DNA of 64,000 nt from Elusimicrobiota bacterium (GCA_003140895.1 PLLH01000012.1:3661-67660); one strand, 5' to 3'; counted from the first letter of the stretch, positions 2,047-55,222 are shown. Notes: generated by a model not told the origin, from the sequence alone. Made by a program: numbers and translations.

Positions 2047-3394
2047 TCGGGCTGAAATATTTGTCGATGAAATCCGTCGAAAATTGCCCTTTCCGGAAGG
2101 CCGGATGAGCCATCACTTTTTGATGGAAGGGAATCGTCGTTTTAATCCCCTCAACCGTGAATTCACGAAGCGCCCGGGCCATGCGGGCCACGGCGGCATC
2201 CCGCCCCCGCGCCGATCCCACAATCAGTTTCCCCAAGAGACTGTCATAATGAGTCGGCACCGTGTATCCCGCGTAAATGTGCGTGTCCACGCGAACCCCA
2301 GGTCCCCCTGGAAGAATGAGCCCCGTGATTTTCCCCGGCGACGGCGAAAAATTGTTATCCGGATCCTCGGCGTTGATGCGGCATTCCATGGCGTGCCCCA
2401 AAATCCGGACATCGTCTTTGTCGTAGCCGAGTTCTTCCCCCGCCGCCAAACGAATCTGTTCTTTGATGAGGTCGATCCCGGTGACGATTTCCGTCACCGG
2501 ATGCTCCACCTGGATCCGCGTGTTCATTTCCAGAAAATAAAAATCACTTTCCCCGTCGTAGAGAAATTCCACGGTTCCCACCGTCACGTACTTCGCCGCT
2601 CGAGCGGCCCGGCGGGCGGCCTTGCCCATCTTTTTCCGGAGGCGATCCGTCACGAGAGGCGACGGGGATTCCTCCACCAATTTCTGATGCCGGCGCTGAA
2701 TGGTGCAGTCCCGTTCGGGATAGCTCACCACGTTGCCTTCCATGTCACCCGCAATTTGCACCTCAATGTGATGCGGGGACTCCAAATATTTCTCAAGAAA
2801 AACGCCGGCTTCTTTGAACGACAACTTGGCTTCGCCTTGAGCGGCCAAGATGGCGTCTTTGAGCTGGCCTTCTTCAAAAACGATTCTCATCCCTTTCCCG
2901 CCGCCGCCGGCCCGGGCTTTGACCATAATGGGGTAACCGATCTTCTTGGCGATTTTAAAAAGCCCCGGGTCCTCCGCGGACACAGGGCCGTCCGTTCCCG
3001 GAAGAACGGGCACGCCGTAACGCTCAACCAGCTGGCGCGCCATCACTTTGTCTCCCATGTTTTTGATGGAGTCGGGGCTTGGTCCGATAAATTTGATGCC
3101 GCAGGACTCGCACACTTCGGCGAAATGGGCGTTTTCAGAAAGAAATCCATACCCCGGATGAATGGCGTCGGCTCCCGTGATCTCCGCCGCCGAAATGAGC
3201 GCCGGAATATTCAAATAACTGTCGGTGGCGGGCGCGGGGCCAATACACACGGATTCATCCGCCAAGCGGACGTGCAACGATTCCCGGTCCACATCCGAAT
3301 GAACGGCCACCGTCGGAATCCCCAGCTCCCGGCAGGCCCGGATCACGCGAACGGCAATTTCCCCGCGATTGGCGATCAAAACTTTTTTAAACAT
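2021..3394 (-). CDS. accC: acetyl-CoA carboxylase biotin carboxylase subunit
   Basis: 457 aa: MFKKVLIANRGEIAVRVIRACRELGI..., ATP-grasp motifs, EMNTRIQVEHPVTE. Immediately downstream of accB. Confidence 0.95.
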   Translation of the reverse strand: MFKKVLIANRGEIAVRVIRACRELGIPTVAVHSDVDRESLHVRLADESVCIGPAPATDSYLNIPALISAAEITGADAIHPGYGFLSENAHFAEVCESCGIKFIGPSPDSIKNMGDKVMARQLVERYGVPVLPGTDGPVSAEDPGLFKIAKKIGYPIMVKARAGGGGKGMRIVFEEGQLKDAILAAQGEAKLSFKEAGVFLEKYLESPHHIEVQIAGDMEGNVVSYPERDCTIQRRHQKLVEESPSPLVTDRLRKKMGKAARRAARAAKYVTVGTVEFLYDGESDFYFLEMNTRIQVEHPVTEIVTGIDLIKEQIRLAAGEELGYDKDDVRILGHAMECRINAEDPDNNFSPSPGKITGLILPGGPGVRVDTHIYAGYTVPTHYDSLLGKLIVGSARGRDAAVARMARALREFTVEGIKTTIPFHQKVMAHPAFRKGQFSTDFIDKYFSPNGANSHAK

Positions 3395-3843
3395 TACTCT
3401 TCCCCTTCCCCCGTCGATTCCTCCATAGGACCCATCTCAAAGAGAGGCTGGCCGTATTCCACTTTCTGGCCATCGTCGACTAAAATTTTCGATATGATCC
3501 CTTCGCAAAAACTCGTCACGTCCGTCGGAATTTTCATGCATTCCACGACACCCAACCGGTCGCCCGGTTTGACATGCTCTCCCTCAACAATCAAAGGGGG
3601 TCTGTCTTTCGATACGGAGCGCCGGAACGTGCCCACCAACGGAGAACGAACCGTAAAGTCCTTCTTTTCTTCCTCCTTGGCGGCTCCATTTTTAGAGCCG
3701 GCCTTGGGGGACTGCGCTTTAACCAAACTGCCGCGCTTAAACGACACTCGAAACCCTTTGTCCTGCCATGTCACTTCGGTCAGCCCATGGCTCTCGGCAA
3801 ACGTCAGCAGTTCGCGGATTTTTTCTTCAACAATTGGTTTCAT
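3394..3843 (-). CDS. accB: acetyl-CoA carboxylase biotin carboxyl carrier protein
   Basis: 149 aa. C-terminal biotinyl domain with the ...VVECMKIPTDV... lysine motif. Stop and start overlap with accC. Confidence 0.85.
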   Translation of the reverse strand: MKPIVEEKIRELLTFAESHGLTEVTWQDKGFRVSFKRGSLVKAQSPKAGSKNGAAKEEEKKDFTVRSPLVGTFRRSVSKDRPPLIVEGEHVKPGDRLGVVECMKIPTDVTSFCEGIISKILVDDGQKVEYGQPLFEMGPMEESTGEGEE

Positions 3844-17486: not shown

Positions 17487-20400
17487 TTAGGCCTGAATCA
17501 ATATTTTCCTGAAGGTTTCAAACATCCCCAATTGAGACGGCGCCAGCCGAATCGCCTGAAGCGTGTTAAGAATGACGAGGACGTCAAAACTGCGCTGCAG
17601 CGCTTCCCGGGTTGAACGGCCCAGCCCAAGCCCATCGAGATTAAAGAAATTTTCCGCCAGCGGGGCCTCATTTCGGAGACGGAAGCGGTTCACGCGCCCA
17701 GACACCTCTTTGGCCAGCGCTTCATCAGTCATGTCGGGTCCGTTCACCGCTCTCAGCAAACTCCACACTGAGGAATGCGCCTTCCCATTCTCAATAAAAA
17801 TATGTTGTTCCCGGATCGATGTTCCCAGCGTTTTTTCGATTTCACGCGTCAAGACCTCCACGTCCATTTGAGGATCAACAACCAAAATCAAACGGCCCAG
17901 ATGATTCCCCCGGCTTTCTCGCTGCCGTTGCGAGATGGATTGAAGGGCTTGCTCAGCCGCCGCTTTCAGCGTGACGGGAAGCCACTCGTAACTATCCAAA
18001 GGCTGCCCTGTTTCCGTCGTATAACCAAGGCTCTCAACGGAAACGAGGAAGCGGCTGACATCGTTCTTAGAAAGAATCATCGCCAAAATGCCCGCCAGAA
18101 ACGGCGCCACGCGAGCCACGTCGCCCCGCGTCATGGTTCCCTCGCCCACTTTTTTCCTTATCTCATCCCGTAACGCCTTCGCCAATTCCGACCCCGACAC
18201 CAAGGGATCCCCAGTTCCCCCCGCCATTTTTTCTCCAACGTTCAACGAGCGGATGGTTTCCTGATCCATGAACACCGCCAACACCTGATTCAACATCTGA
18301 GCTTTATTGCCATTGTTTTCCTGAACGATTCCGATGAGTTTCGAGGCCAAGGATGAACCGGGCGTCAGTTGGGGCGCGCTATTGTTAACGACGAGATGGA
18401 AAGCGGTGGAGACGAGAATGGGAATGGAAAAGAGGGAGAAAGTGGGAAACGCCATGATGAGCGGGATCGTGACGGCCGCGATCAAAATGGAAAGACCGGC
18501 GTTCACGGGAAGCGGAGGACCCCGCTCCGCGCGAGCCTCTTTATCAAGAGCCCACATGGACAAAACGATCACCCATTCCAGAATATGAATGGCCGCGAAG
18601 ACACCCCACACCCACCACGTCGCCGCTGTCAAATCCATCCCCTGCCCATTGAGAAGCGCCATCGCCCCAAAGGCCAGGCCATTTTCAAGCACAGGCGCGA
18701 CCCACCGGTCATACGCTCCCGACGAGAGCCGGCCGCTGAACATCGGAAGAACAATCGCTTTAAGCCCGATCAGGAGGCCGCCCCTTGAAACCGATTTCAA
18801 TTTTCCCAGAGTAAACCAGTCCTCCGCGTAAGGAAGCCAATTCTCGTTTCGGTGCAACACGGATCTCACGTCCCGGAGTTCGTGAATCGCCGTAGACAAA
18901 GACATCTCGCCCGCTATCATTTTTCTCATGGCCATATGAATTCGCAAATTATTCTTCAAATGATCCGGGAATGTATTGTTCAGGATGCAAGCGAGAGAAA
19001 AAATATCGGATTCGATCGTGGCGATTCCTCCGTCAAAACGATTTTTCGGCGTGTACCCGTCTGAGTGAATCGAGTCTCCAATTTCGTATGTGTGAACGAC
19101 GGGCACAACCGACATGACATCCAGAATCCGGACCCGAATTTTTCCGTCAGACCCTTTTTGAATTTTGATGTTACCTGGTTTCAAATCGCCGTGAAGGAAC
19201 CCGGCTTCGTGCCATTTCTGCATCGTCTCCAAAATGGCGATGGCCTCATCCAACGTCAACGGCTCTTCTTGCGCCCTGTTCCATAAATCTTTTTCCTCGA
19301 TCCACTCCATCAATAAGAAAGAACGGGGGAATTTTTTCCCGACCCCCATTCCGAGAAATTCCGGAGCGGAAACAACCCCTTTGTCGCTAAGATCCTTCAA
19401 TTTTCTCCCTTCGATCCGATTGAAAGCGATGGCATAAACCAACTCCGACAAAAATCGGGGCTCCCCATTGGACATGAGTTGACTGACCGCCCCCACCTTC
19501 ACGGCGATGGCCGGGCCATTGGGACCTCCCACTTCATACGCCTTATAGACCCGTCCAAACCCGCCTCCGTAGGGGCGTCCTTTGATTTCATACGTCTTAT
19601 TTTTTACGGTGACCTTGGTCCCTTGTGGGAGAGCCATGAGCGCTTTATCTATTTCTGTTTGATTCTTTTCCAAGATATACCAGAAGTTTTTTATGGCAGA
19701 CACGTCGTCCAGTTTCTTTTGAAACGGCATATTTCTCTGAGACCAAATAAATTTTTCGTCATAACGCGGGGATACCGTTTTCATCTCCGCATGAATGTCC
19801 CTCACCTCTTGATCCGACAATTGCGCCAATAAAAGATCCCACAATTCCCGCATTTCGCTTGGTTTGGTTTCCGGGACGGGTCCAACCGGGAGAGGAGGAG
19901 GCGATGTCCGAGTAGGCTTGGCCACCGCATCTCTGCCCAACAATTTGTCAAGCGAAGGTCCATAGGTCAGAATGCTGGCAAATGGCCTCCATCGCGGCGA
20001 AACGCCTTTCAACACGCCAGCGTTGTAAAGGACGTGGATTCCCGCTGAACACCAGAAGGCGTAATCGGAAATAAAAACCGGCATGAGAGAAGTGAAAGAA
20101 AGGGAGAAGACGGCGCCGAGGAAAGAACGAACAGTGAAATCCAAGACATCTTGCCGAAGATGAATCTGATTAAAAGCTTCGCGCCATCCACGCTCTTTAG
20201 CCCGCACAATCCACGCCACAATGGTGTGGGCAAATGAAAACGTAACGGTGGCCCAACCAAAACCAACCCCCAGTGCCAACGCAGGACTTAAACCAAATCC
20301 CGTCAAAACTGTTGGAATTGAGGATACCCCCCACTGATGGAAAACTTTGGCCTCCCATAAGGAAGAGACGACAACAATCAAATTCCAATAGAGAAAGGGA

Positions 20401-23400
20401 TGTGACATTTTGAGCCTCTGAATCAACGGCAACTCTGCCAAGACAGCCATCGGCTTCGGCTTATTTTGAGATATGAACTTCTCCAGTTCCCGAATGACCT
20501 GCGCGACATCTTCTGACTGAAGCGCGGGTTCCCCCCGTTCTGCTCTATCCTTTTGCTTTCGCAATGCGGGTGAACCGGCTTTTTTTCCACGCATCTCGTC
20601 ATATCGGATTTGCTCCTTGAGATAGTTCAAATTCTCCTCCAAAAGAGTCAAACCATCGGTAGAACTTCCAGAAAACGTTTTCAAAAAAGCTTTAAAAATA
20701 AACTCGTTATTCTCCTCCGTCTCTCCATAATTTCCATAAAAAGAGATCATCCGCAGAAGACATTTATCCAAACTGACTCTTCTATCCCCCAAATCGACCA
20801 TAACAGCCATCTCAGGAGGGGCAATAAGCGCCCAGGGGAGAAACTTAGCCAAAGGACCGACGGGCGCAGTGAGTTGGGAGCCAAGGCGACTCATCCCAAA
20901 AAAACGGGATTTACTCCTACCGGTTGTCCGAGTGATAATGAAATTTTTCTCGTGGATATCTTTTGGCATCTCGCCCAAGATCCTTGAAATTTCAAGAAGG
21001 CTCTCAACAGCCAACTGCCGATGCCGGGGCAGCAATTCCCTCTTTTCCTTGAGCTCTCTTAATGTCGGGCCGTCAATAAACTCTTCTAAATAAAATTCAA
21101 GATCCCCCCCTTCGTCGACTATTGAAAAATATTTTCCAAAACGCGGAACAAAATCTGTCTCTTCGGACAACAACTCAAGATCTGTCAACTCTATTTTCCT
21201 AATGTCACCGGGAGTTTTGGGCTTCTTGACGGCAACCATGACTTTAAATGGAGATGATTTTTTTAACTCAAAATCCACTCTAAAAACCAACTTATGTGTT
21301 CCCTCCTGATGAAATTTAAGACTAACTTTGCCGGTAAAATCTTCAAGCGCAATGTTATTTCGGGTTAGGTGATTTAAAAAATCCACCACAACTGCTGACT
21401 TATTCTTGAATATAAGATGGGAAATGGCGTGCGATAGACGCACGCTCAAAATGGCGATGTCTAATTCTTTAGGGTCAGTTGTAATGTCATGTGAATAATT
21501 AACTTCCAGTCGATGAAAAATGGATGCCAGCGGCCAATTCTTAAGTAATTGATTGAGCCGCTCCGTTCCCTTTTGAAGAACTCCGAAGTTGTATCCCCGG
21601 TGACTGAACCAAGCCCAGCCAAGGGCAAGGAAAAGGATTGCCGAGGAGACAAGGAGGAAGAGAGAAAAAGACGAAATCAGCGGAAGAGCGAAGAAGACGG
21701 CAAACAAGGGTGTGTGAAAAACGGTACCGGCAACGAAAAGCTTGGTGAGTCGCCACGGGGTTGGCGGAGCCTGGACAGGCGGCGCCTGAGCGTCCGGCGA
21801 TTGTCTCTGTATGTGAAGCGAGGTGAACACCAAGTTGCTCATCACACCTGCGAACACCGCCGCCGATTTATGATCGAACGTGGCTCCAAAGAAACCCAGA
21901 GCCCCTGCGTAGAACGCGGCGAAGAAGACAGCCACCAGCGCCGTCTCAAACAGCGGCGCGACCCGCGTCGAGATTTCATCATCAAGAATGGCTTCCGCGC
22001 CAAAAAGATTCCGAAGCGGATTCAGCAGGAACCGGGTGAATAACCGCGTGAGGCCCCAGGTGGCGGTAGGTGAAGAATTCCTAAATTTGGCGGGAAGACG
22101 GAAATCGGCAGGAGGCGCCCGGTCTTGAGCTGCTTGTTTTACCGCATTCAAAATCCCAAGCCCCGCGCCACCATCTCGAAACCGCTCCAGCACCGCATTC
22201 AAAACTGTTAACTGATCTTTAAGGAACTCTCGATCATGCGTCCACTCCATTTCGGGTTCGCCCCGTTGGATATGGGTTCGCTCATGAGTGGTGGCTTCGA
22301 TAAGTGTATAGAGAAGCCGCTGAAAATTTTCCCTCTCGGAGTTTGAAAAGGAGCGACCGCCCTTAATGAGAAGTTTGTGCAGGGTTTGGAGATCCTCATA
22401 GATGGCGCCCACATCCCAAGCGATATTAAACTGCCCTACCTGCGTATAGGCAATGGCGCCCCTTTTGGCTGACGAAAAGAACTCATGTCGGCATGCTTTT
22501 GCCACTGGCATAACAGCGTCAATCGGAGCCAACACCGCCTCAACCAATCTCTGCCAGGCCAAAAGAATGGACGCCTCGGGATCATTCGGGGAAACGGGAG
22601 AGGCGTTCACTTCCTCTCGGATATTCGCGGCAAAACCGCGGGCCTTGATGAGCAACTGCCCCATTTCTGCTTCGGCTTGAGCGCGCTTAATTTGTTCTTT
22701 CAGCCAATCGGGAAGTTGTTCCAAAATCTCCTTATTCTTGAGGCCCAAAATAATGGCATCAAAACATGAAATTTTCGTTCCTTGAATGGGAATCATAGGA
22801 AGAGACATTAAAAGCAGAATGGAATTTATTTCGGCATTGAGGCCGCGCGCATAAATCGACACATCATTGACTGGTTTCCCTTCCGCCACCCGCTTTGCAT
22901 CCTCGGCAATTCGGGTACCCTCTTTCGGCTTATACGTCGCGGCATTAATAATATAGTCATACGGCAACCGATCCTTAAGATCCAAACGTCCCAGTCCCAA
23001 AAGACGCCCTACGGCGGCCATCCCCGCCAAAGCCAAGGCCGGCTTCAATTCCTCTATCTTTTTTGCGCGCCCCACAAAATCTGTCCGTCCTTCGATGGGT
23101 TCAACATCCGCTTCCAGATTTAGAACAAACCCAAATTCCGAAAGGAGTTCTAAAAACAATCGAGGAATGGGATAGGTGAATTCACCGTTTAACTGGCACA
23201 TGTAAAATTGATTTAAATTAAATGCCTGTTCGCCCACGGCGGCATAAATCTGGATCGCTTCGCCGGTGGAACTTCGCTTTACTTCAGCCAAGGGTTCCAC
23301 CTTATCATTGACCAAAATGTTATTCCATACGACCCTCATCTTTTTCTTATCAAAGAGCCCCACATAGGAGCCTAAACGAACAAAAATTTCAGAAGCAAGA

Positions 23401-26400
23401 AGTCCCGGGTTGTCTGAGGTCTTGCGCCATTCCACCGTCGTGCCGGATTTTTGATTTGTCTGGTTTTGAACGACACGCATACGGACATCGACAAGACGGT
23501 CTCCCTGTCGGACCGGCGTCAAATAAACCACCGTGGTCACGCCGTTTTTGGTGGACCTGACCCTGACATCATCTCCAGAGCGGAATAACGTGTAGAACCC
23601 CTGGCCGAAATGAAGCCAATCCGACGACCACCCGCTGGCGCTTGGCTGGAGCAGTTTGCCGATGATCTCTTGAAGGTCCATTCCAATTCCTTCATCGGAC
23701 ATGGACACCGCCAGTTCTCCGCTATCTTCGACCCAGCTGTTCACCTGGAAAACCGGAACGCTCCCGTCCTTTGAACGCCTGCTTCGGCTCGCTTCATAGG
23801 CGTTGGTGACCACTTCTCTCAAGAAAGCGTATTCGTCGGTCGTCTGTTCATAGGCGCGGCGGATACTCACGCGCGCGCGTTCCTTTAATTCTTGGGGGGC
23901 GCGCCTTGATTTTTCAGACAGGGTTGGAAGATCGCCGGCATTCGTCACCGATTTGAATTGGGATTCGCTCTCTCTATTTTGACCCATCGCCAAAATCAAA
24001 TCAGAAACTTCGACTTCAACACTCTGCTGATCTGCGGCGCCAATGGCGGAGGGCGGTTTCGAGCCGAGAGGAGGGGAATCGCTGTAGGATTGATGAAGAT
24101 GAGCCGCCAATCGGGCGCTCAGCATTCCCCTGGTTTTAAGAATCTCTTGTAGATCCTTTAACTGAAAACGGTATAGATTAGAAATAATATCAGCTTGACC
24201 CCTTCGATTATCGGAGTTCAAAAAAGAAAACTCTTGTAAGAGATCCTTTGCTTCATTCTCGCTCAAACCCGACACCAAAGACTCAAAAAGCATATTGGCT
24301 TTTTTTACTAGACTCCAAATGCCCTTGTTATCGTTAGGACCAACAGGTTCCTTTTGATACAGGGAAAAAAGCAAACTCTTGTATACTTCAACCCAACCCA
24401 TGTTAGTCAGATATTCTGGAAGATGTCGAAACCGGGTTTTGAAATAATCTGTTTTCGATCGTTCATCAGGAGGCATAAAATAGTCCAGCAGGCTTTTAAT
24501 GAAGAATCCTCTTTCAGAAAATACAGTAAAGACTGCATCATGCATTCCCACCCCCCCATACCGGTGCCCAAGCCAATACATTTCAAAGACCAGAGGATTG
24601 TCAATTTTGTACCAATCTGCTTTCCCCTCAAGGTTTTTTTGGTACCTATCCATCAATTCACGATAGACCAAGTAGAGAACAACATCTTGAATAATGACGT
24701 TGCTGTAGCTCAGCAGGGATCCTTCTTCAATGAGGAGATTAAATTCATAAAAATTTTTATTTTCAATATGATATTTGCGTATCAACTCCTTCGCTTCAGC
24801 GGAGATAACCGGCATGATCGGTTTTCCACCGCTCGTAAACAGCGAGCGAAATCGGTCAGGGAAGGACTCCCAAAAACTCCGAGGAAGAAGATTTACAAGC
24901 TCATCGGGTGGATACAAAACATTCGATAATCTATCCCAAAGTATAAATTCCTCTCTCGTCCTTGCATCTTTAGTCCCTTGTGAAAAAAATCTGTGAAAAT
25001 TAAAAGAAGAATCATTCCCCTTGAGGCCGGCCGTCTCAAATCCTTCGGTCTCATGTGCGGATTGAAGAAGTAAAGGTTTTTCTGTCTGAATGAGAGGATC
25101 GATATCGTCCCCTTCCTGCGCGGCCCGGGCCACATCCGCCACCGCTTGAAGAGCCGCCAGCGCTTCATCTTGGGTCTCCGAATTTTGAATCGCTCCTCTA
25201 AGGGATGGATCGACCAGAAGGATTCCGCCTTTGGCCAACCTCGCCCCCATAGGTCCCTTGGATTGACTCAAACGAACATAGACAATCTGGCGGAATTGAC
25301 TGTCTCGCATCGAGTCCGGGATTATCTGTTGACCGCGAGGCAAAAGTTCTTTTCTGATGAAAAAGAGGTTGGCCTGGTTCGGCACCAACGACTCTCTTAA
25401 ACTCACGTCGTCCTCCAATACCAGCCAACTATTCTTAACCGATGATCGCTGGAGGAATCCCTCTACGTGAGACCTTAGGTTCTCCATTGGATCTGAAGAC
25501 ATTACTCTCGTTTTCCCCGGAGGCGTATCTTTTTGGAGAGATTCAACAACGGGATAAAGGAGGTTCGCCATTCGGCAAAAAAGATCGGGTCGAGAATCGA
25601 ATCTCTCAGCGAGGGTGTCGATAAGGCGTTCCAACGCTTTTAAAACCGCTTGAGTCGATTTGATTTTGTCTCTGTCGCGGGCATAGTCAAAAAGATCCTT
25701 GTGAAAATCCAACACGGCCTCACCGAACTCACCAAAGGTTTCAAACCGAACAGTGGTGAAATAGACCCCGTTGATCAGGATATGGACTCCCGTTTCTTGG
25801 CCCCGGCGGGTCGTGGCCGTCTGAGGAGGAACTCTCATGCTGACGGCGCCGTCGACATCCGCAATTCTCTTAACACCCTCCTGAGAATTCAATATCCACG
25901 GTTTTCCATCCATCACCTCAATGACGGCATCTGACTTATGACGTAAAACTTTCTTGGCTTCCGTTAAGACGGAGTCTCTTTGAATTTGAGATGAAATGAT
26001 TTCAACTTCAGAACCATGACCAAGACGCGCCGCCTCTCCGGGAGAAAGTTTTAAGCAACTCATCATCAACTGACCGTTGTCTCCAAGAGAAAATTCAAAA
26101 CGATTGGCTTCCATGCCGGACACCGTCCAGATGACGACTTTGTCATCAGGTCCGGTCAAATAAGAAAAAATAGACAAAAATCCAGTGCCAAACCGGCCCG
26201 TGGTTCCTGACTGCTTAAAATTTCCACCCTCTCCGGGGTTCAAGAGCTTGGTCAAATCAGCGAGGGAAATACCCTCTCCCCAATCACGGACAACGGCCCG
26301 GCCATCTTGAATGGTGAATTGCACCTTTTTTTCCGAGTTAAATTTACTTCTGAAATTAAGACGCTCCTCCGTATCAATCGCGTTAAGAAGAATTTCAATA

Positions 26401-28958
26401 ATGGGACGGGCGCTCAAATTGGTGAACTGTTTATGAGTGAGGGAACGGATGGCGCGTCCAAACGTAACCACAGCCGACTCCGAAACGCGCGTCAATAGCT
26501 TGAGGACGGTATTCTTGCCCCGCCGGACGGCTTCGCCAATCAATTCAGTCGGGGTTCCTTGCACGGCCGCCACGAATTCGACGACGGGGAACCTTTCCTC
26601 CCGCGCTGCACGTTGGGCTATGGCATCCACGATCTGCGACTTTAATTCTCCGGATTTTCCCGTTGGCATTCCGGCCGGTTTGACGGCCGCCATGATTTTA
26701 TCCGCCAACGTATCAAAATTTTCGGGATGATCTTTATCGATGGGGAAATTTTGGAGAGCCTGTTCAATTTCTCTGCCCAACAATTTTCTGGGCGGAAGCC
26801 CGTGGGCCATAATGCTGGCCAACGGCATCCACCGCGGCAAAACGCCCGTCAAAATGCCCAAATTGGTAGAGGAATGGATCGCCATGGAAATCATTGCGGC
26901 CCACCCCAAACTCATTCCCGGGATGAGGAAAGGCGTCCCCAGACCCAACCCCACCAAGAAAAGAAGGGCCATCCGCGACGGTGTGCGATTGGGGTGAGCC
27001 CAGGCAAAAAAGGCGGCACTTAAGAGGAGAGCCACGGGTCCCACAAAAGGAACAGAGGGCAATAAGGTCTGCGCCAAGGGCAAAATCAATTGAAACACCA
27101 ATTCCCAATTGACCCCGAGAACCAAATAAATTTTTTCTTTTAAAGATGTCTGAATTTGGACATTGTCTCTGGCCGCGTCCGCCTTATCCAGAATATCCAC
27201 ATGCGCTTTAAAAAGCCGTTGTCCCATTTGAATAACAACATCGGAGGTATTTTGTATCCGGGCTGTCAGACTCGCCATCACTCGGAAAAATGTGGAGGGG
27301 TGCGTGCTATGAACAAAATCCGGACATACAAAAAGTTTTTCGCCGGAGAGTATTTTGTCGAGGGGCGTTTTCTCGCGGGCGAAAATGGATAAGTAGGCCG
27401 TTCCACTGCCCTCTTCAACTTTGGTGATTTTGGGAGAAACAACGACGTAGGAAATTTTTTGTTCTTTGAACATCTGGGCGATTTCGGGGGTGTGAAAACC
27501 GCCGGTGACGAGGACAACGGATTTCCCCCTCTCCCCCTCTCCCTTAAATAGCTTCTCCACCATTTTCTCGCTGCGGATTTCGGCTTCGCGGTAGAACGTC
27601 TCGAAAGGCGACAAATCCATGCTGTGCGAGAGCGCTTGGTACTTTTTCCATTCTTTGGGTGTCAGCGCAAACTCAATCAGTTTTCCGGCGAGTGAAAGAT
27701 ATTCGCTTCGCTTTATCAAATTCTTCTGCTCATCCGTTTGAACCAGGCGCTGAACGATGACGTTCTCAAGCTTTTCCACCGCATCAAATAGTTTGTCCGC
27801 TTTGATCCCATCGGTCAGAAGCACATAGCGGATGTAGTCATCAAACGCCGGGGTTTGCCTTAAATGGATTCCTTTCCGTTCGCAAAGCCGTTTTAATCCT
27901 TCGTAATAATCTCCAAAACTGAGTCTCCCCGTGCGATAAGCCAAGCTATTGGCGACAAGACTCGAAATCTCTTTTTCATTTAATACCCGGGTTAATTTTT
28001 CCAGAACTTGTTTTCGCTCATTCTCAACCCTCTTGAAATCGAGTGTCGATTCCATCTTAAACGCTTCAAGAAATTGGTCGACGACAACGTCATTGTCGAG
28101 ACGACCGGCGGAGAGTTTCTTAACGTAAGACCCAAGACCGACATCCCCCCGCTGATAGGCGTCCCGTAAATTGTCGAACTGGGTGAGTTCTGTCGAAAAA
28201 ACGGTTCGTTTGGACTCAGTCAGGTTTCGTTTAAATTCACCCATTTGTTTGATGACGTTCTTTTTCAATTCCCGCGAGGTCAAATACGCCTGGACGTTCG
28301 CTTTGTAGTGCTCCTGATCATCCACGCCCACGAACAAAGGCGGCTCATTGGCACTTGTCATCCCGACGAAGGAAGGGGCGGACAGGAGATTCTTATCGAG
28401 GTACGCCTCCGCGACTTGTTTTGTGATCTCTTTATCGGAGAAGGCCCGAAAGCGCGTGAAATCAAACCGGCTGAAAGCGCCTTCCACGCCGACGAGACCG
28501 ACTTGCCCCTGATCCATCAACTCTTGCAGAACGGAGACGATGTTGGTTTGCGCTTCGGGGTTTAAATGAACGTCTTGGACAAGAACCACCGCCGGCTTCG
28601 CCGAATCCCCGGAATCATAAACATCCTGAATGGAACCCGTGTTGGAAGGGATTGAAGCCACGAGCTCTTGGATTTTCTTTGAATACGTGGACGTTTTTCC
28701 TCTCAACGAGGGGTTCCATTTGAGCGCCGAGGGAAGAGTGGAATCGACACCCGGCATTTGATTGAGGAGTGTTCTCGTGGAGAGCGCTGAACCGGCCAGG
28801 GAGGCGGGAAGTGACGCCAGCTGCTTTTCTTGCCGCTCCATCGCGCGGCGGCGCTCCGTCCAAATATTCGTTTCGGAAGCGGATCCCAACACCACTTGAG
28901 AGGTGAAGAAGAAAACAGCAAGAGAAAGGGCTAGGACTTTCTTTGGTGTGTTTTCCAT
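17487..28958 (-). CDS. giant (3,823 aa) polytopic multidomain membrane protein: signal peptide + TraB/GumN-like domain + 4 TM modules + 2 Hsp90/sacsin-type GHKL ATPase modules + degenerate kinase-like + Ser/Thr kinase domain
   Basis: Single uninterrupted 11,472-nt ORF with no competing long frames. Motifs read directly: EILLNAIDTEE / DWGEGIS / GRFGTGF; EVVTNAYEAS / SDEGIGM / HFGQGFYTLF; GRPYGGGFGRVYKAYEV...AIAVK...HGDLKPGNIKI...DSIHSDGYTPKNRFDGGIATIESDIFSL; DIHEKNFII; TM modules ending in PRW(M/R)P(L/F)ASI...KLLGR. Confidence 0.8.
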   Translation of the reverse strand: MENTPKKVLALSLAVFFFTSQVVLGSASETNIWTERRRAMERQEKQLASLPASLAGSALSTRTLLNQMPGVDSTLPSALKWNPSLRGKTSTYSKKIQELVASIPSNTGSIQDVYDSGDSAKPAVVLVQDVHLNPEAQTNIVSVLQELMDQGQVGLVGVEGAFSRFDFTRFRAFSDKEITKQVAEAYLDKNLLSAPSFVGMTSANEPPLFVGVDDQEHYKANVQAYLTSRELKKNVIKQMGEFKRNLTESKRTVFSTELTQFDNLRDAYQRGDVGLGSYVKKLSAGRLDNDVVVDQFLEAFKMESTLDFKRVENERKQVLEKLTRVLNEKEISSLVANSLAYRTGRLSFGDYYEGLKRLCERKGIHLRQTPAFDDYIRYVLLTDGIKADKLFDAVEKLENVIVQRLVQTDEQKNLIKRSEYLSLAGKLIEFALTPKEWKKYQALSHSMDLSPFETFYREAEIRSEKMVEKLFKGEGERGKSVVLVTGGFHTPEIAQMFKEQKISYVVVSPKITKVEEGSGTAYLSIFAREKTPLDKILSGEKLFVCPDFVHSTHPSTFFRVMASLTARIQNTSDVVIQMGQRLFKAHVDILDKADAARDNVQIQTSLKEKIYLVLGVNWELVFQLILPLAQTLLPSVPFVGPVALLLSAAFFAWAHPNRTPSRMALLFLVGLGLGTPFLIPGMSLGWAAMISMAIHSSTNLGILTGVLPRWMPLASIMAHGLPPRKLLGREIEQALQNFPIDKDHPENFDTLADKIMAAVKPAGMPTGKSGELKSQIVDAIAQRAAREERFPVVEFVAAVQGTPTELIGEAVRRGKNTVLKLLTRVSESAVVTFGRAIRSLTHKQFTNLSARPIIEILLNAIDTEERLNFRSKFNSEKKVQFTIQDGRAVVRDWGEGISLADLTKLLNPGEGGNFKQSGTTGRFGTGFLSIFSYLTGPDDKVVIWTVSGMEANRFEFSLGDNGQLMMSCLKLSPGEAARLGHGSEVEIISSQIQRDSVLTEAKKVLRHKSDAVIEVMDGKPWILNSQEGVKRIADVDGAVSMRVPPQTATTRRGQETGVHILINGVYFTTVRFETFGEFGEAVLDFHKDLFDYARDRDKIKSTQAVLKALERLIDTLAERFDSRPDLFCRMANLLYPVVESLQKDTPPGKTRVMSSDPMENLRSHVEGFLQRSSVKNSWLVLEDDVSLRESLVPNQANLFFIRKELLPRGQQIIPDSMRDSQFRQIVYVRLSQSKGPMGARLAKGGILLVDPSLRGAIQNSETQDEALAALQAVADVARAAQEGDDIDPLIQTEKPLLLQSAHETEGFETAGLKGNDSSFNFHRFFSQGTKDARTREEFILWDRLSNVLYPPDELVNLLPRSFWESFPDRFRSLFTSGGKPIMPVISAEAKELIRKYHIENKNFYEFNLLIEEGSLLSYSNVIIQDVVLYLVYRELMDRYQKNLEGKADWYKIDNPLVFEMYWLGHRYGGVGMHDAVFTVFSERGFFIKSLLDYFMPPDERSKTDYFKTRFRHLPEYLTNMGWVEVYKSLLFSLYQKEPVGPNDNKGIWSLVKKANMLFESLVSGLSENEAKDLLQEFSFLNSDNRRGQADIISNLYRFQLKDLQEILKTRGMLSARLAAHLHQSYSDSPPLGSKPPSAIGAADQQSVEVEVSDLILAMGQNRESESQFKSVTNAGDLPTLSEKSRRAPQELKERARVSIRRAYEQTTDEYAFLREVVTNAYEASRSRRSKDGSVPVFQVNSWVEDSGELAVSMSDEGIGMDLQEIIGKLLQPSASGWSSDWLHFGQGFYTLFRSGDDVRVRSTKNGVTTVVYLTPVRQGDRLVDVRMRVVQNQTNQKSGTTVEWRKTSDNPGLLASEIFVRLGSYVGLFDKKKMRVVWNNILVNDKVEPLAEVKRSSTGEAIQIYAAVGEQAFNLNQFYMCQLNGEFTYPIPRLFLELLSEFGFVLNLEADVEPIEGRTDFVGRAKKIEELKPALALAGMAAVGRLLGLGRLDLKDRLPYDYIINAATYKPKEGTRIAEDAKRVAEGKPVNDVSIYARGLNAEINSILLLMSLPMIPIQGTKISCFDAIILGLKNKEILEQLPDWLKEQIKRAQAEAEMGQLLIKARGFAANIREEVNASPVSPNDPEASILLAWQRLVEAVLAPIDAVMPVAKACRHEFFSSAKRGAIAYTQVGQFNIAWDVGAIYEDLQTLHKLLIKGGRSFSNSERENFQRLLYTLIEATTHERTHIQRGEPEMEWTHDREFLKDQLTVLNAVLERFRDGGAGLGILNAVKQAAQDRAPPADFRLPAKFRNSSPTATWGLTRLFTRFLLNPLRNLFGAEAILDDEISTRVAPLFETALVAVFFAAFYAGALGFFGATFDHKSAAVFAGVMSNLVFTSLHIQRQSPDAQAPPVQAPPTPWRLTKLFVAGTVFHTPLFAVFFALPLISSFSLFLLVSSAILFLALGWAWFSHRGYNFGVLQKGTERLNQLLKNWPLASIFHRLEVNYSHDITTDPKELDIAILSVRLSHAISHLIFKNKSAVVVDFLNHLTRNNIALEDFTGKVSLKFHQEGTHKLVFRVDFELKKSSPFKVMVAVKKPKTPGDIRKIELTDLELLSEETDFVPRFGKYFSIVDEGGDLEFYLEEFIDGPTLRELKEKRELLPRHRQLAVESLLEISRILGEMPKDIHEKNFIITRTTGRSKSRFFGMSRLGSQLTAPVGPLAKFLPWALIAPPEMAVMVDLGDRRVSLDKCLLRMISFYGNYGETEENNEFIFKAFLKTFSGSSTDGLTLLEENLNYLKEQIRYDEMRGKKAGSPALRKQKDRAERGEPALQSEDVAQVIRELEKFISQNKPKPMAVLAELPLIQRLKMSHPFLYWNLIVVVSSLWEAKVFHQWGVSSIPTVLTGFGLSPALALGVGFGWATVTFSFAHTIVAWIVRAKERGWREAFNQIHLRQDVLDFTVRSFLGAVFSLSFTSLMPVFISDYAFWCSAGIHVLYNAGVLKGVSPRWRPFASILTYGPSLDKLLGRDAVAKPTRTSPPPLPVGPVPETKPSEMRELWDLLLAQLSDQEVRDIHAEMKTVSPRYDEKFIWSQRNMPFQKKLDDVSAIKNFWYILEKNQTEIDKALMALPQGTKVTVKNKTYEIKGRPYGGGFGRVYKAYEVGGPNGPAIAVKVGAVSQLMSNGEPRFLSELVYAIAFNRIEGRKLKDLSDKGVVSAPEFLGMGVGKKFPRSFLLMEWIEEKDLWNRAQEEPLTLDEAIAILETMQKWHEAGFLHGDLKPGNIKIQKGSDGKIRVRILDVMSVVPVVHTYEIGDSIHSDGYTPKNRFDGGIATIESDIFSLACILNNTFPDHLKNNLRIHMAMRKMIAGEMSLSTAIHELRDVRSVLHRNENWLPYAEDWFTLGKLKSVSRGGLLIGLKAIVLPMFSGRLSSGAYDRWVAPVLENGLAFGAMALLNGQGMDLTAATWWVWGVFAAIHILEWVIVLSMWALDKEARAERGPPLPVNAGLSILIAAVTIPLIMAFPTFSLFSIPILVSTAFHLVVNNSAPQLTPGSSLASKLIGIVQENNGNKAQMLNQVLAVFMDQETIRSLNVGEKMAGGTGDPLVSGSELAKALRDEIRKKVGEGTMTRGDVARVAPFLAGILAMILSKNDVSRFLVSVESLGYTTETGQPLDSYEWLPVTLKAAAEQALQSISQRQRESRGNHLGRLILVVDPQMDVEVLTREIEKTLGTSIREQHIFIENGKAHSSVWSLLRAVNGPDMTDEALAKEVSGRVNRFRLRNEAPLAENFFNLDGLGLGRSTREALQRSFDVLVILNTLQAIRLAPSQLGMFETFRKILIQA

Positions 28959-29079: not shown

Positions 29080-30114
29080 TTAACTTCCCATGTACGCGTA
29101 GGCTTTTTGGCCCACGGAGGCGATGACCCCTTTGGCTTTTCGGTAGTTCCCCAGGTGCCCGGTCAAAACGCAGAGGATGTAATCCCCGTCGGGTGAAAAC
29201 ACAATCCCGACATCATGGCAATTCCGGCGGAGAAGCCCTGTTTTATGCGCCAATTTCCACGTTCGAGGAAGATACGTGGACAGCCGGCTATGGCTGTTAA
29301 CGCCCTTAAGAATCTCAAGCATCGCGTCGCTCAAGGCGCTATTGACCATCTTACGATTGTAAATCTGTTCCAGGAGAAACCCCATTTCCCGGGCGGTGGT
29401 GTAATTGTCTTTATCGGAACGCAGGCGATCGGCCAAACTCATGCCGGAGGGGTTGATCCGCGTCGTCATAAGACCCAATTTTTCAAATGTTTGATTCAAA
29501 TAATCATACCCCAGCCGGTCAATAACCATGGCGGTGGCGGTGTTGTCCGAACGCGTGATCATCTCGTAAATGAGAGAGGAAACCGAGTACGCGGAGCCGG
29601 AACGCGCCCACTTAAGACGTCCGGATCCTCCTCGACGGAAATTTCTCTTGAGCGCCATCCGGGAACTGAGGGACAACCGTCCCTCATTGATGGCTTCAAA
29701 CGCTGCCACCATGATCGGCAGTTTGATAAGACTGGCGCTCACAAACGGCTTGTCGGCATCCTTTTCAAAGGTCCGGCCTGTTTTCAAATCTTTAATATAG
29801 AGTCCCACGTCGCCGTCGTAATGGGAGATCACCCCTGAAATAGACCCGATCATTTGAGCCCACCGGCGGTCGTCAGCCTGAATGGGAACCGGTTCCACTG
29901 AAATCGCCACGGGGCGAGGACACAGGCCAAAGAAGAGGCCGACGAGAAGGAGTACCATCCCGACCCATCCCCAAGAAGCGCTAACAGCGAACGTGGGGAC
30001 CGGTTTCTCGTTGACCTTCGAATAATGAATCGCGTGGTTTCGTGGCATGTTCACTAGAGAATGTACCAGCCAAAACCGTAAATTTCCAACATTTCTTATA
30101 AGAAACAACTTCAT
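29080..30114 (-). CDS. membrane-anchored class A beta-lactamase-like serine hydrolase
   Basis: SxxK (FVSASLIK), SDN (RSDNTA) and KTG (HKTG) motifs in canonical order. N-terminal hydrophobic anchor WGWVGMVLLLVGLFFGL. Start codon choice uncertain. Confidence 0.65.
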   Translation of the reverse strand: MKLFLIRNVGNLRFWLVHSLVNMPRNHAIHYSKVNEKPVPTFAVSASWGWVGMVLLLVGLFFGLCPRPVAISVEPVPIQADDRRWAQMIGSISGVISHYDGDVGLYIKDLKTGRTFEKDADKPFVSASLIKLPIMVAAFEAINEGRLSLSSRMALKRNFRRGGSGRLKWARSGSAYSVSSLIYEMITRSDNTATAMVIDRLGYDYLNQTFEKLGLMTTRINPSGMSLADRLRSDKDNYTTAREMGFLLEQIYNRKMVNSALSDAMLEILKGVNSHSRLSTYLPRTWKLAHKTGLLRRNCHDVGIVFSPDGDYILCVLTGHLGNYRKAKGVIASVGQKAYAYMGS

Positions 30115-30126
30115 TTTTAGACTCGT

Positions 30127-30417
30127 TTATCTCTCAATTTTCACTAACAACCGTATATCTTCCAAAACCATGGCCACCGCTTCGCAGCGCTCAAAGTGAC
30201 CCGAATACACCACCGCGCTCCCATTGTGATGAACCTCGGCGGCCAGCTCCAAACCGCGGGTGACGGTGCAGCCAATGGCTTTGACCAATTGCACGGCCAC
30301 TTCATCAAATGTGTGAACGTCGTCGTTAAACAAAACGGTCCGGGCGCCGTACCCGCGGACGGTTTGCGTGTCGTTCTGTTTCTCTTGAAGCGGATTTTGA
30401 CTCACAGGGCAACTCAT
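30127..30417 (-). CDS. clpS: ATP-dependent Clp protease adaptor ClpS
   Basis: 96 aa. Core VLFNDDVHTFDEV...V resembles the ClpS signature (V.L.NDD.T.M.FV). Confidence 0.8.
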   Translation of the reverse strand: MSCPVSQNPLQEKQNDTQTVRGYGARTVLFNDDVHTFDEVAVQLVKAIGCTVTRGLELAAEVHHNGSAVVYSGHFERCEAVAMVLEDIRLLVKIER

Positions 30418-55020: not shown

Positions 55021-55222
55021 TTTTTCAAAAGACGTCCGGAAGCTGCTTCTGGAACACTGGACGTTTGGCGAGATTGAGTCCCGGTTATCGGACCCGGCTT
55101 ATTTTTTTGAACAGGTGGTACTTCCGCGGCTGGCGTATCTTCGTCGAAACGGCAAAGACGTCCCCACGCTTCGCCTTCAGCAATCTCCCAACAACCCGCT
55201 GCGCGTGATTCTGATCCCTTAG
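55007..55222 (+). CDS. hypothetical small protein (GTG start, 71 aa)
   Basis: AAGGAAA Shine-Dalgarno 4 nt before GTG 55007. No family assignment. Overlaps the MauE stop. Confidence 0.25.
   Translation: MQLSDFSKDVRKLLLEHWTFGEIESRLSDPAYFFEQVVLPRLAYLRRNGKDVPTLRLQQSPNNPLRVILIP

What the first reader, a model, noticed from the sequence alone, without database searches (positions are those of the whole stretch)
18323..27128. Four copies of a repeated transmembrane module ending in a PRWxP(L/F)ASI...KLLGR signature
Hydrophobic multi-helix blocks occur at aa ~610-730, ~2335-2480, ~2850-3010 and ~3420-3545. Three of them terminate with near-identical motifs. These are GVLPRWMPLASIMAHGLPPRKLLGRE, GVSPRWRPFASILTYGPSLDKLLGRD and NWPLASIFHRLE, with a weaker fourth at P-LTPGSSLASKLIG. 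This internal duplication suggests the megaprotein grew by repeating a membrane-embedded unit, each coupled to a different soluble effector domain. The motif is not one I recognise from known families.
Basis: seen in the sequence. Interest (0 to 1): 0.6.

Follow-up and report, generated by a model that had tools for sequence, protein, structure and literature searches.

The report
Repeated protease-like membrane modules in giant protein
One 3,823-residue membrane protein of an uncultured bacterium carries four copies of a four-helix membrane module that bears the Glu/His/His/Asn signature of Rce1/CPBP-type intramembrane proteases, each placed just before a different enzyme domain, which suggests a membrane-bound multi-enzyme "polyprotein" of a kind not yet described.

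Summary
ORF 17487-28958 (-) encodes a 3,823-aa protein with four hydrophobic modules at the stated positions. The M1 and M3 tails are 15/26 identical, and M2 shares W-PLASI. The fourth "tail" is not conserved in relatives and is probably chance.

Only M1 and M3 are significantly alike by self-alignment. M2 and M4 join them only through profiles built from related giant proteins.

All four modules carry E...FxxxH...HxxxN, the published signature of the CPBP/Rce1 family. In seven diverged relatives of M4, these four residues are among only nine invariant columns.

Formal membership is unproven. M1 hits Pfam Rce1-like below threshold (E=0.0067) but in register. Profile comparison with real Rce1 is weak (P=0.024), and Foldseek finds nothing.

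The protein belongs to a small family, one member labelled Elusimicrobia. Members share a conserved ~550-aa N-terminal head and a C-terminal domain around variable "module + enzyme" cassettes. Each window module is closer to modules in other proteins than to its siblings, so this is cassette shuffling rather than recent internal duplication.

Best reading: divergent intramembrane peptidase modules that process or control the enzyme that follows. Cleavage itself is inference.

The parts
17487..28958 (-). Giant ORF, 3,823 aa, carrying all parts below
   Evidence: The exact protein is on record on 4 contigs (ENA, NCBI).
28875..28958 (-). N-terminal signal-peptide-like or signal-anchor segment (aa 1-28)
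   Evidence: Hydropathy peak at aa 6-28. The motif TQVVLxSAxETNxWxERR is conserved in relatives.
27309..28874 (-). Conserved N-terminal 'head' (aa 29 to about 550), the hallmark of the family
   Evidence: 49-52% identity among four giants. Found in 20 proteins and 35 metagenome loci. One relative carries PF04187 (ChaN/Tiki-type).
26769..27143 (-). Module M1 (aa 606-730): four helices with E619, H655 (FAWAH), H695/N699 (HSSTN); tail GVLPRWMPLASIMAHGLPPRKLLGRE at 26769-26846
   Evidence: PF02517 E=0.0067, in register. AF2 gives four long helices plus a short tail helix.
26157..26408 (-). GHKL ATPase domain 1 (sacsin / HATPase_c_3-like, aa 851-934)
23430..23822 (-). GHKL ATPase domain 2 (HATPase_c, aa 1713-1843)
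21501..21977 (-). Module M2 (aa 2328-2486): E2338 (APLFE), H2382 (FTSLH), H2453/N2457 (HRGYN); tail NWPLASIF at 21504-21539
   Evidence: Linked to M4-type modules by hhalign P=3e-5 and BLASTP E=0.004.
19929..20384 (-). Module M3 (aa 2859-3010): E2869 (WEAKVF), H2911 (FSFAH), H2975/N2979 (HVLYN); tail GVSPRWRPFASILTYGPSLDKLLGRD at 19929-20006
18843..19649 (-). Ser/Thr protein kinase domain (aa about 3104-3372; HGDLKPGN)
   Evidence: Pkinase E=1.1e-7. PADLOC kinase models down to 9e-15.
18324..18722 (-). Module M4 (aa 3413-3545): E3425 (APVLEN), H3458 (FAAIH), RGPP loop, H3521/N3525 (HLVVN).
   Evidence: AF2 pLDDT 78.8, four helices plus a tail helix.
17490..18311 (-). Conserved C-terminal domain (aa 3550-3823), ending ...LIQA
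   Evidence: Shared with P0003, P0004 and P0005. C-termini compared.

Best explanation
Each block is a four-helix membrane domain. It is most likely a very divergent member of the CPBP/Rce1-PrsW-APH-1 superfamily of intramembrane peptidases. A Glu sits in helix 1, FxxxH in helix 2 and HxxxN in helix 4. Both ends of the module, and the basic loop between helices 2 and 3, face the cytoplasm.

The giant protein is a membrane-tethered chain of cassettes. Each cassette is a peptidase-like module, then a short linker (in the M1/M3/M2 types a conserved W-P-hydrophobic-A/S-S/T motif), then a soluble enzyme. The cassettes sit between a conserved N-terminal head and a conserved C-terminal domain.

The proposed function is that each module acts in cis on the linker or enzyme that follows it, by cleaving it off or gating it. 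This resembles the role predicted for PrsW-type 'releasing peptidases' placed N-terminal to toxin domains.

Shown: the modules, their signature, its conservation, the cassette architecture and the family.
Inferred: homology to CPBP, catalytic activity, the topology, and above all the cis-cleavage.
For: 1. All four modules match E.{25,50}F...H.{35,75}H...N. The shuffle frequency is 2e-4 to 5e-3 per module. This pattern is the published CPBP signature and was not derived from these data.
2. In seven M4-type modules (24-45% identical), only nine columns are invariant, and they include the Glu, both His and the Asn. The second His is invariant, with N or D at +4, in all 15 modules first collected.
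3. M1 hits PF02517 (Rce1-like) as its best Pfam family, E=0.0067. E619 falls at HMM position 20 and H695 at 87. Genuine yeast Rce1 gives the same register (residues 143-254 on HMM 6-93). A module of P0003 also aligns end to end in register (E=2.1).
4. hhalign of the M1/M3 profile against a real Rce1 alignment aligns FxxxH...HxxxN with Rce1 181-249 (P=0.024). In a separate run with a smaller profile (T4), the M4-type 'APLLE' aligns with Rce1 'APITE' (P=0.64).
5. A paralogous giant with the same head, on the contig of P0003, has a precomputed PF02517 hit in the confident class.
6. Lys+Arg counts, on the helix boundaries of the AF2 models: M4 has 7 on the N-flank, loop 2 and tail against 0 in loops 1 and 3. 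M1 has 8-10 against 0 (counts are mine from the sequence). This places the ATP-using domains in the cytoplasm.
7. The strict tail motif occurs 6 times in 62,648 aa of family proteins, always within 60 aa after a membrane HxxxN/D.
8. Precedent: PrsW peptidases, distantly related to CPBP and APH-1, fused N-terminal to toxin domains are predicted to release them autoproteolytically (PMC3482391).
Against: - No library places the modules in a family at threshold. PF02517 scores 17 bits against a cut-off of 22.4, and only 2 of the 15 modules scanned show it at E<=10 (none of the 10 further modules does).
- Subfamily consensus sequences do not hit PF02517.
- NCBIfam gives nothing relevant.
- hhalign against eukaryotic Rce1 is not significant for the M4, M2 and first-module types.
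- Profile searches of PDB sequences miss Rce1.
- Foldseek of two AF2 models (pLDDT 70.5 and 78.8) against the PDB finds nothing better than E=2.
- The second Glu and the Arg of EExxxR are missing.
- There is no evidence of cleavage.
- The head carries a signal-peptide-like N-terminus, so it should be outside the cell. M1 by charge should start inside, and no helix lies between them. This is an unresolved topological conflict.
Confidence: 0.45

Rival explanations
1. The modules descend from CPBP-like proteases but are no longer catalytic. They would act as membrane anchors or regulatory scaffolds that hold and modulate the adjacent kinase and ATPase domains. Precedents are the Abi-domain proteins Abx1 and SpdC, which act on the histidine kinases CovS and WalK, and APH-1, which scaffolds gamma-secretase.
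For: The EExxxR motif is reduced to a single Glu with no Arg. The modules are fused to GHKL ATPase and kinase domains. Abi-domain proteins that control histidine kinases are documented (PMC3578759, PMC5854430). No cleavage evidence exists.
Against: Strict invariance of Glu, His, His and Asn across modules only 24-45% identical fits an active site better than a scaffold. The GHKL domains are sacsin/Hsp90-like rather than classical sensor kinases.
Confidence: 0.25
2. The module is a family-specific four-helix membrane domain unrelated to CPBP. It could be a metal- or ligand-binding sensor that signals to the downstream enzyme, and its E/H/H/N pattern would be convergent.
For: No significant profile or structural match to CPBP. 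An exhaustive search of 1.84 billion representatives with the module profile found only four proteins (three relatives of the same giant family plus P0002, a 310-aa fragment of the window protein itself) and no ordinary CPBP protein. A conserved R-[GA]-P-P loop is, to my knowledge, not a CPBP feature.
Against: The order, helix placement and spacing of the three motifs match Rce1: yeast E156-H194-H248 (positions) against, for example, E3425-H3458-H3521. The PF02517 alignments are in register. A paralogue carries a PF02517 label.
Confidence: 0.2
3. There is no real repeat. The blocks would be generic hydrophobic stretches and the shared short motifs would be chance.
For: M2 and M4 do not exceed composition-matched shuffles in leave-one-out tests within the protein. 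The fourth 'tail' is not conserved.
Against: M1-M3 E about 3e-11. Family profiles link all types, with reversed controls flat. The joint chance of the signature is about 3e-13. The tail motif is found only after modules.
Confidence: 0.02

Closest known systems
CPBP / Rce1-like (Abi, peptidase M79/G5; Pfam PF02517) intramembrane proteases
   Same: Membrane-embedded core with Glu in one helix, FxxxH in the next, and HxxxN two helices later. Spacing is similar. The motif AP-x-x-E precedes the Glu, as in Rce1 APLTEE/APITEE. M1 gives an in-register sub-threshold hit.
   Different: Only four helices per module (Rce1 has eight, from my own knowledge). The second Glu and the Arg of EExxxR are absent. 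There are four copies in one chain, interleaved with enzymes. No hit reaches threshold, and there is no structural match.
PrsW-type 'releasing peptidase' architectures of polymorphic toxins (Zhang et al. 2012, PMC3482391)
   Same: A multi-helix membrane peptidase domain lies N-terminal to a variable enzymatic domain and is joined by a short linker. The variable C-terminal partners appear to have been exchanged by recombination.
   Different: No PF13367 hit. Here there are several modules per protein. The partners are kinases and GHKL ATPases rather than nucleases or deaminases. No immunity gene is evident next to the ORF. Release is unproven in both cases.
MARTX-type multi-effector toxins processed by an internal cysteine protease domain (own knowledge)
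   Same: A very large protein that carries several unrelated enzyme domains between conserved ends. Processing between domains is proposed.
   Different: MARTX uses one soluble cysteine protease domain and repeat regions, and is exported by a type I system. Here the candidate processing units are membrane-embedded and repeated.
Abi-domain regulators Abx1 and SpdC (PMC3578759, PMC5854430)
   Same: A CPBP-type membrane domain functionally coupled to HATPase-containing kinases.
   Different: Those are separate small proteins of Gram-positive bacteria that act in trans. Here the coupling is by fusion.

Membership tests
CPBP / Rce1-like (PF02517) | Scores above the Pfam gathering threshold (22.4 bits) | tested here: not met
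   Best is M1 at 17.0-17.1 bits, E=0.0067. P0003 module f scores 9.1 bits. The other 23 modules and four consensus sequences give no hit.
CPBP / Rce1-like (PF02517) | Motif 1 EExxxR with a catalytic Glu in a membrane helix | tested here: inconclusive
   A single Glu is conserved (WELVFQ, LFETAL, WEAKVFH, VLENGL). It is invariant in M4-type modules. The second Glu and the Arg are missing. Canonical AEEF and LEESLGR occur in relatives.
CPBP / Rce1-like (PF02517) | Motif 2 FxxxH in the following helix | tested here: met
   FAWAH, FTSLH, FSFAH and FAAIH. The His is invariant in M4-type modules.
CPBP / Rce1-like (PF02517) | Motif 3 HxxxN/D in a later helix | tested here: met
   HSSTN, HRGYN, HVLYN and HLVVN. 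The His is invariant, with N or D at +4, in 15 of 15 modules.
CPBP / Rce1-like (PF02517) | Profile-profile similarity to genuine members | tested here: inconclusive
   hhalign against an eight-sequence Rce1 alignment (A8): M1/M3-type P=0.024, in register. Other types P=0.23-0.55. Reversed controls P>=0.11. The reference was eukaryotic Rce1 only.
CPBP / Rce1-like (PF02517) | Rce1-like fold with the tetrad clustered in a membrane cavity | tested here: inconclusive
CPBP / Rce1-like (PF02517) | Proteolytic activity | not testable with these tools
   Needs biochemistry.
PrsW peptidase (PF13367) | Sequence match to the family model | tested here: not met
   PF13367 is not listed for any module at E<=10.
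Polymorphic toxin with releasing peptidase | Variable C-terminal toxin domain with an adjacent immunity gene | tested here: not met
   The C-terminal domain is conserved, not variable. The neighbours are Omp85, an S11 peptidase and ClpS, with no evident immunity gene.
Polymorphic toxin with releasing peptidase | Peptidase domain N-terminal to exchangeable enzymatic domains | tested here: met
   Modules of the same type precede different domains in different proteins.

The most novel reading that the evidence does not exclude
The giant is a self-processing membrane polyprotein. Each of the four intramembrane peptidase modules would cut its own conserved tail (around W-P-L/F-A-S-I) and so release or activate the enzyme that follows. 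One gene would then yield a set of separately controlled kinases and ATPases at the membrane. To my knowledge this has not been described for bacteria or for CPBP-type enzymes.
Probability: 0.2. Interest if true: 0.8.

Novelty: new variant of a known kind. Interest (0 to 1): 0.6.

Why it matters
CPBP/Rce1-type proteases are, to my knowledge, known as single-domain membrane enzymes that act on other proteins. These targets include prenylated CAAX proteins, bacteriocin and quorum-sensing precursors, and sorting tags.

If these modules are active, several would sit in one chain, each paired with its own enzyme. That would be a new use of the fold. It would also offer a tractable model for cis-acting intramembrane proteolysis and for how giant bacterial proteins are assembled from cassettes.

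Even if they are inactive, the family is a defined group with no match above threshold in Pfam, NCBIfam or PADLOC. It has a head, N cassettes and a tail, and is found in uncultured bacteria, one member labelled Elusimicrobia. The module and head alignments made here could seed new family models.

Tried and rejected
**Searches that returned nothing**
- The whole giant as a homology query timed out.
- M3 alone gave no homologue in the word-indexed database. The 90% cluster of the giant is represented there by a 310-aa fragment.
- Two scans of GTDB genomes and one of metagenomes with the giant or the M1/M3 alignment found no relative.
- Profile searches of PDB sequences gave only noise: FliP, ICMT and a PTS component.

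**Attempts to obtain a bacterial CPBP reference**
- An invented CPBP consensus used as bait in plasmids and in the PDB found nothing.
- Yeast and human Rce1 recalled from memory were used only as bait. They were validated: 100% identity to P0026, labelled PF02517. The retrieved set was eukaryotic only.

**Family and structure tests**
- Subfamily consensus sequences against Pfam gave no CPBP hit.
- NCBIfam on the modules gave one weak hit to a YdjM-type hydrolase, E=0.041, which I did not pursue.
- Jackhmmer on the family did not merge the module types.
- Foldseek against the PDB was run twice with no match.

**Other checks**
- PADLOC recognised only the generic kinase domain, so a defence-system reading is not supported.
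- No canonical EExxxR CPBP gene was found in the window or in the fetched loci.
- The module of the paralogous giant that carries the PF02517 label lies beyond the DNA I could fetch. The first module of that paralogue (PIAEEFIF...FVLLH...HIGVN) does not hit PF02517 itself.

Full report
**What is there**

The finding lies inside a single ORF, window 17487-28958 on the minus strand, encoding 3,823 aa. The same protein is on record on four assembled contigs in ENA and NCBI, so it is not an assembly accident of this window.

All four quoted motifs are present at aa 705-730, 2474-2485, 2985-3010 and 3531-3543. P[LF]ASI occurs three times in the six-frame translation of the whole 64-kb window, and only at these places.

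Pfam, NCBIfam and PADLOC recognise these soluble domains:
- a sacsin/HATPase_c_3-type GHKL domain at aa 851-934;
- a second HATPase_c at aa 1713-1843;
- a Ser/Thr kinase at about aa 3104-3372.

**Is it a repeat?**

Within the protein alone, only partly.
- M1 and M3 share 45% identity over the last two helices plus tail (53 aa, E about 3e-11).
- In leave-one-out HMM tests against 3,000 composition-matched shuffles, only M1 (24.4 bits) and M3 (14.1 bits) exceeded every shuffle. M2 (6.4) and M4 (-0.6) did not.

**Relatives**

An exhaustive HMM search with the four-module profile against 1.84 billion representatives returned just four proteins. One is a fragment of this protein. The other three are giants of 4,410, 3,166 and 1,912 aa, with three, two and one matching stretches.

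These giants share with the window protein:
- a signal-peptide-like N-terminus;
- a ~550-aa head at 49-52% identity;
- a C-terminal domain.

Their middles differ.

A search with the head profile found 20 further proteins. One is named as coming from an Elusimicrobia MAG, and one carries PF04187 (ChaN/Tiki-type). The same profile found 35 metagenome loci, many with ORFs of 2,500 to more than 3,900 aa.

**Linking the module types**

From these proteins I collected 25 modules. Grouped by type, profile-profile comparison links them:

| Comparison | P |
|---|---|
| M4-type vs M2-type | 3e-5 (92 columns) |
| M1/M3-type vs first-position modules | 1.1e-4 |
| M1/M3-type vs M2-type | 1.3e-3 |
| Best of 25 reversed-sequence controls | 0.11 |

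M2 also matches an M4-type module of P0004 by BLASTP (37% over 54 aa, E=0.004). All four blocks are therefore versions of one unit.

Each window module is closer to modules in other proteins than to its siblings:
- M3 vs P0003: 41% over 143 aa.
- M4 vs P0005 and P0003: 41-45% over 125-146 aa.

The module types are thus old and have been shuffled. They were not recently duplicated in place.

**What the unit looks like**

Every module has a Glu near the start of the first helix, FxxxH in the second and HxxxN in the fourth:

| Module | Glu | His (FxxxH) | His / Asn (HxxxN) |
|---|---|---|---|
| M1 | E619 | H655 | H695 / N699 |
| M2 | E2338 | H2382 | H2453 / N2457 |
| M3 | E2869 | H2911 | H2975 / N2979 |
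| M4 | E3425 | H3458 | H3521 / N3525 |

- This strict pattern arises in 2e-4 to 5e-3 of composition-preserving shuffles of each module. The joint probability is about 3e-13.
- In seven M4-type modules that are only 24-45% identical, just nine columns are invariant. They include exactly this Glu, both His and the Asn.
- The second His is invariant, with N or D four residues later, in all 15 modules first collected.
- M4- and M2-type modules also share an R-[GA]-P-P loop between helices 2 and 3.
- AF2 models give four long helices followed by a short helix over the tail: M1 pLDDT 70.5, M4 pLDDT 78.8 with pTM 0.60.

On those helix boundaries I counted Lys+Arg from the sequence. M4 has 7 on the N-flank, loop 2 and tail against 0 in loops 1 and 3. 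M1 has 8-10 against 0. By the positive-inside rule, both module ends and all inter-module enzymes are cytoplasmic, which suits ATP-using domains. This is an inference.

**Comparison with known families**

E...FxxxH...HxxxN is the signature of the CPBP/Rce1 (Abi) intramembrane proteases. I formed this hypothesis from the motifs before testing it.

*In favour*
- M1's best Pfam family is PF02517 (Rce1-like), E=0.0067.
- The alignment puts E619 at HMM position 20 and H695 at 87. Genuine yeast Rce1 gives the same register: residues 143-254 on HMM 6-93, so E157 falls near 20 and H248 near 87.
- A P0003 module aligns end to end in the same register at E=2.1.
- hhalign of the M1/M3 profile against eight real Rce1 sequences aligns FxxxH...HxxxN with Rce1 181-249 at P=0.024.
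- In a separate run with a smaller profile (T4), the M4-type 'APLLE' aligns with Rce1 'APITE', though at P=0.64.
- A second giant with the same head, on the contig of P0003, carries a precomputed PF02517 hit of the confident class. The module responsible lies beyond the DNA I could read.

*Against*
- The Pfam score is below threshold (17 vs 22.4 bits).
- 23 of 25 modules and four consensus sequences give no PF02517 hit.
- NCBIfam gives nothing relevant.
- PDB sequence searches miss Rce1.
- Foldseek of both models against the PDB finds nothing better than E=2.
- The second Glu and the Arg of EExxxR are absent.

I therefore call it a probable, very divergent relative of the CPBP-PrsW-APH-1 superfamily, not a demonstrated member.

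**The tail**

The M1 and M3 tails are 15/26 identical by my count. A strict form of the motif, W-x(0,1)-P-[LFIVY]-[ASF]-[STGD]-[ISYL], occurs six times in 62,648 aa of family proteins. All six lie within 60 aa after a membrane HxxxN/D. These are M1, M2 and M3 of the window protein, two modules of P0003 and one of P0004.

M4-type modules lack the motif. The tail sits exactly at the junction between module and downstream enzyme. In M3 it is followed by a proline-rich linker.

**How it most likely works**

The architecture is a membrane peptidase-like module, then a short conserved linker, then an exchangeable enzyme. The same polarity is described for PrsW-type releasing peptidases, which are distant relatives of CPBP and APH-1. 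They are fused N-terminal to toxin domains and predicted to free them by autoproteolysis (PMC3482391).

I propose that each module acts in cis on what follows it.
- *Strong version:* cleavage at the tail, giving a self-processing membrane polyprotein. I put this at about 0.2.
- *Weaker version:* the module tethers and gates the enzyme. This is supported by the documented control of histidine kinases by the Abi-domain proteins Abx1 and SpdC (PMC3578759, PMC5854430).

A convergent, unrelated sensor domain remains possible.

The head has a signal-peptide-like N-terminus and so should be outside the cell. M1 by charge should begin inside, and no helix separates them. I could not resolve this conflict.

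**Verdict**

- It is wrong about recent internal growth and about the unit having no known relatives.
- The family and its multi-module cassette architecture have no match above threshold in Pfam, NCBIfam or PADLOC.
- I rate it a new variant of a known kind, with moderately high interest.

Noticed in passing
window 55219-63972 (-): A second giant ORF of 2,917 aa with long polytopic membrane regions (about aa 870-1640 and 2100-2660). It has no Pfam family at E<=0.1 and no module of the kind studied here.
   Followed up: partly
window 17490-17510 (-) and C-termini of P0003-P0005, L005, L012, L013, L021, L023, L024: All ten complete giants of the family end in [A/Q/S/G]-Ala-COOH after a hydrophobic helix (LIQA, LIAA, LAAA, LVAA, LTAA, LGA, LISA, LAQA, RQA, RSA). 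Two shorter members do not. This resembles an SsrA-like C-terminal degron or an export tag. Function unknown.
   Followed up: partly
window 30127-30417 (-) and 29080-30114 (-): A ClpS (N-degron adaptor) gene and an S11 D-Ala-D-Ala carboxypeptidase-like gene lie directly upstream of the giant in the same orientation. If the tail were cut before Leu or Phe, the products would carry N-degrons. This is pure speculation. ClpS is not listed among the called genes in the 8.6 kb upstream and 10 kb downstream of P0003.
   Followed up: partly
window 22272-22286 (-), aa 2225-2229: An HExxH motif (HERTH) lies about 100 aa upstream of M2. P0003, P0004, P0005 and L003 each also carry an HExxH motif in otherwise unassigned regions. 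These could be soluble metallopeptidase domains. Homology among them was not tested.
   Followed up: no
P0003 aa about 2660-2700 and about 3330-3370 (L038): A ~40-aa linker, EKGQVSL(F/S)RPWENRSPISVSLINQ(N/K)AKAISGNRR, occurs twice nearly identically in one protein. A looser copy (FRFWKKWWPFSTSHENQ) follows another module. This looks like a footprint of cassette recombination.
   Followed up: partly
window 27144-28874 (-) versus 26769-27143 (-): Topological conflict. The signal-peptide-like N-terminus puts the head outside the cell. The charge distribution of M1 puts its N-terminus inside. No hydrophobic helix lies between them.
   Followed up: partly
L038 26816-31883 (JGI 3300076002, Ga0645779_04304): The genome that encodes P0003 carries a second giant of the same family (4,610 aa) only 5 kb downstream. 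It is labelled PF02517 and DUF1152. A Fic-domain gene and a nucleotidyltransferase gene lie between the two.
   Followed up: partly
method note (cluster of the window protein): The 90%-identity cluster of the 3,823-aa protein is represented in the word-indexed database by a 310-aa fragment (P0002). Domain queries from this protein therefore cannot find even themselves there.
   Followed up: yes
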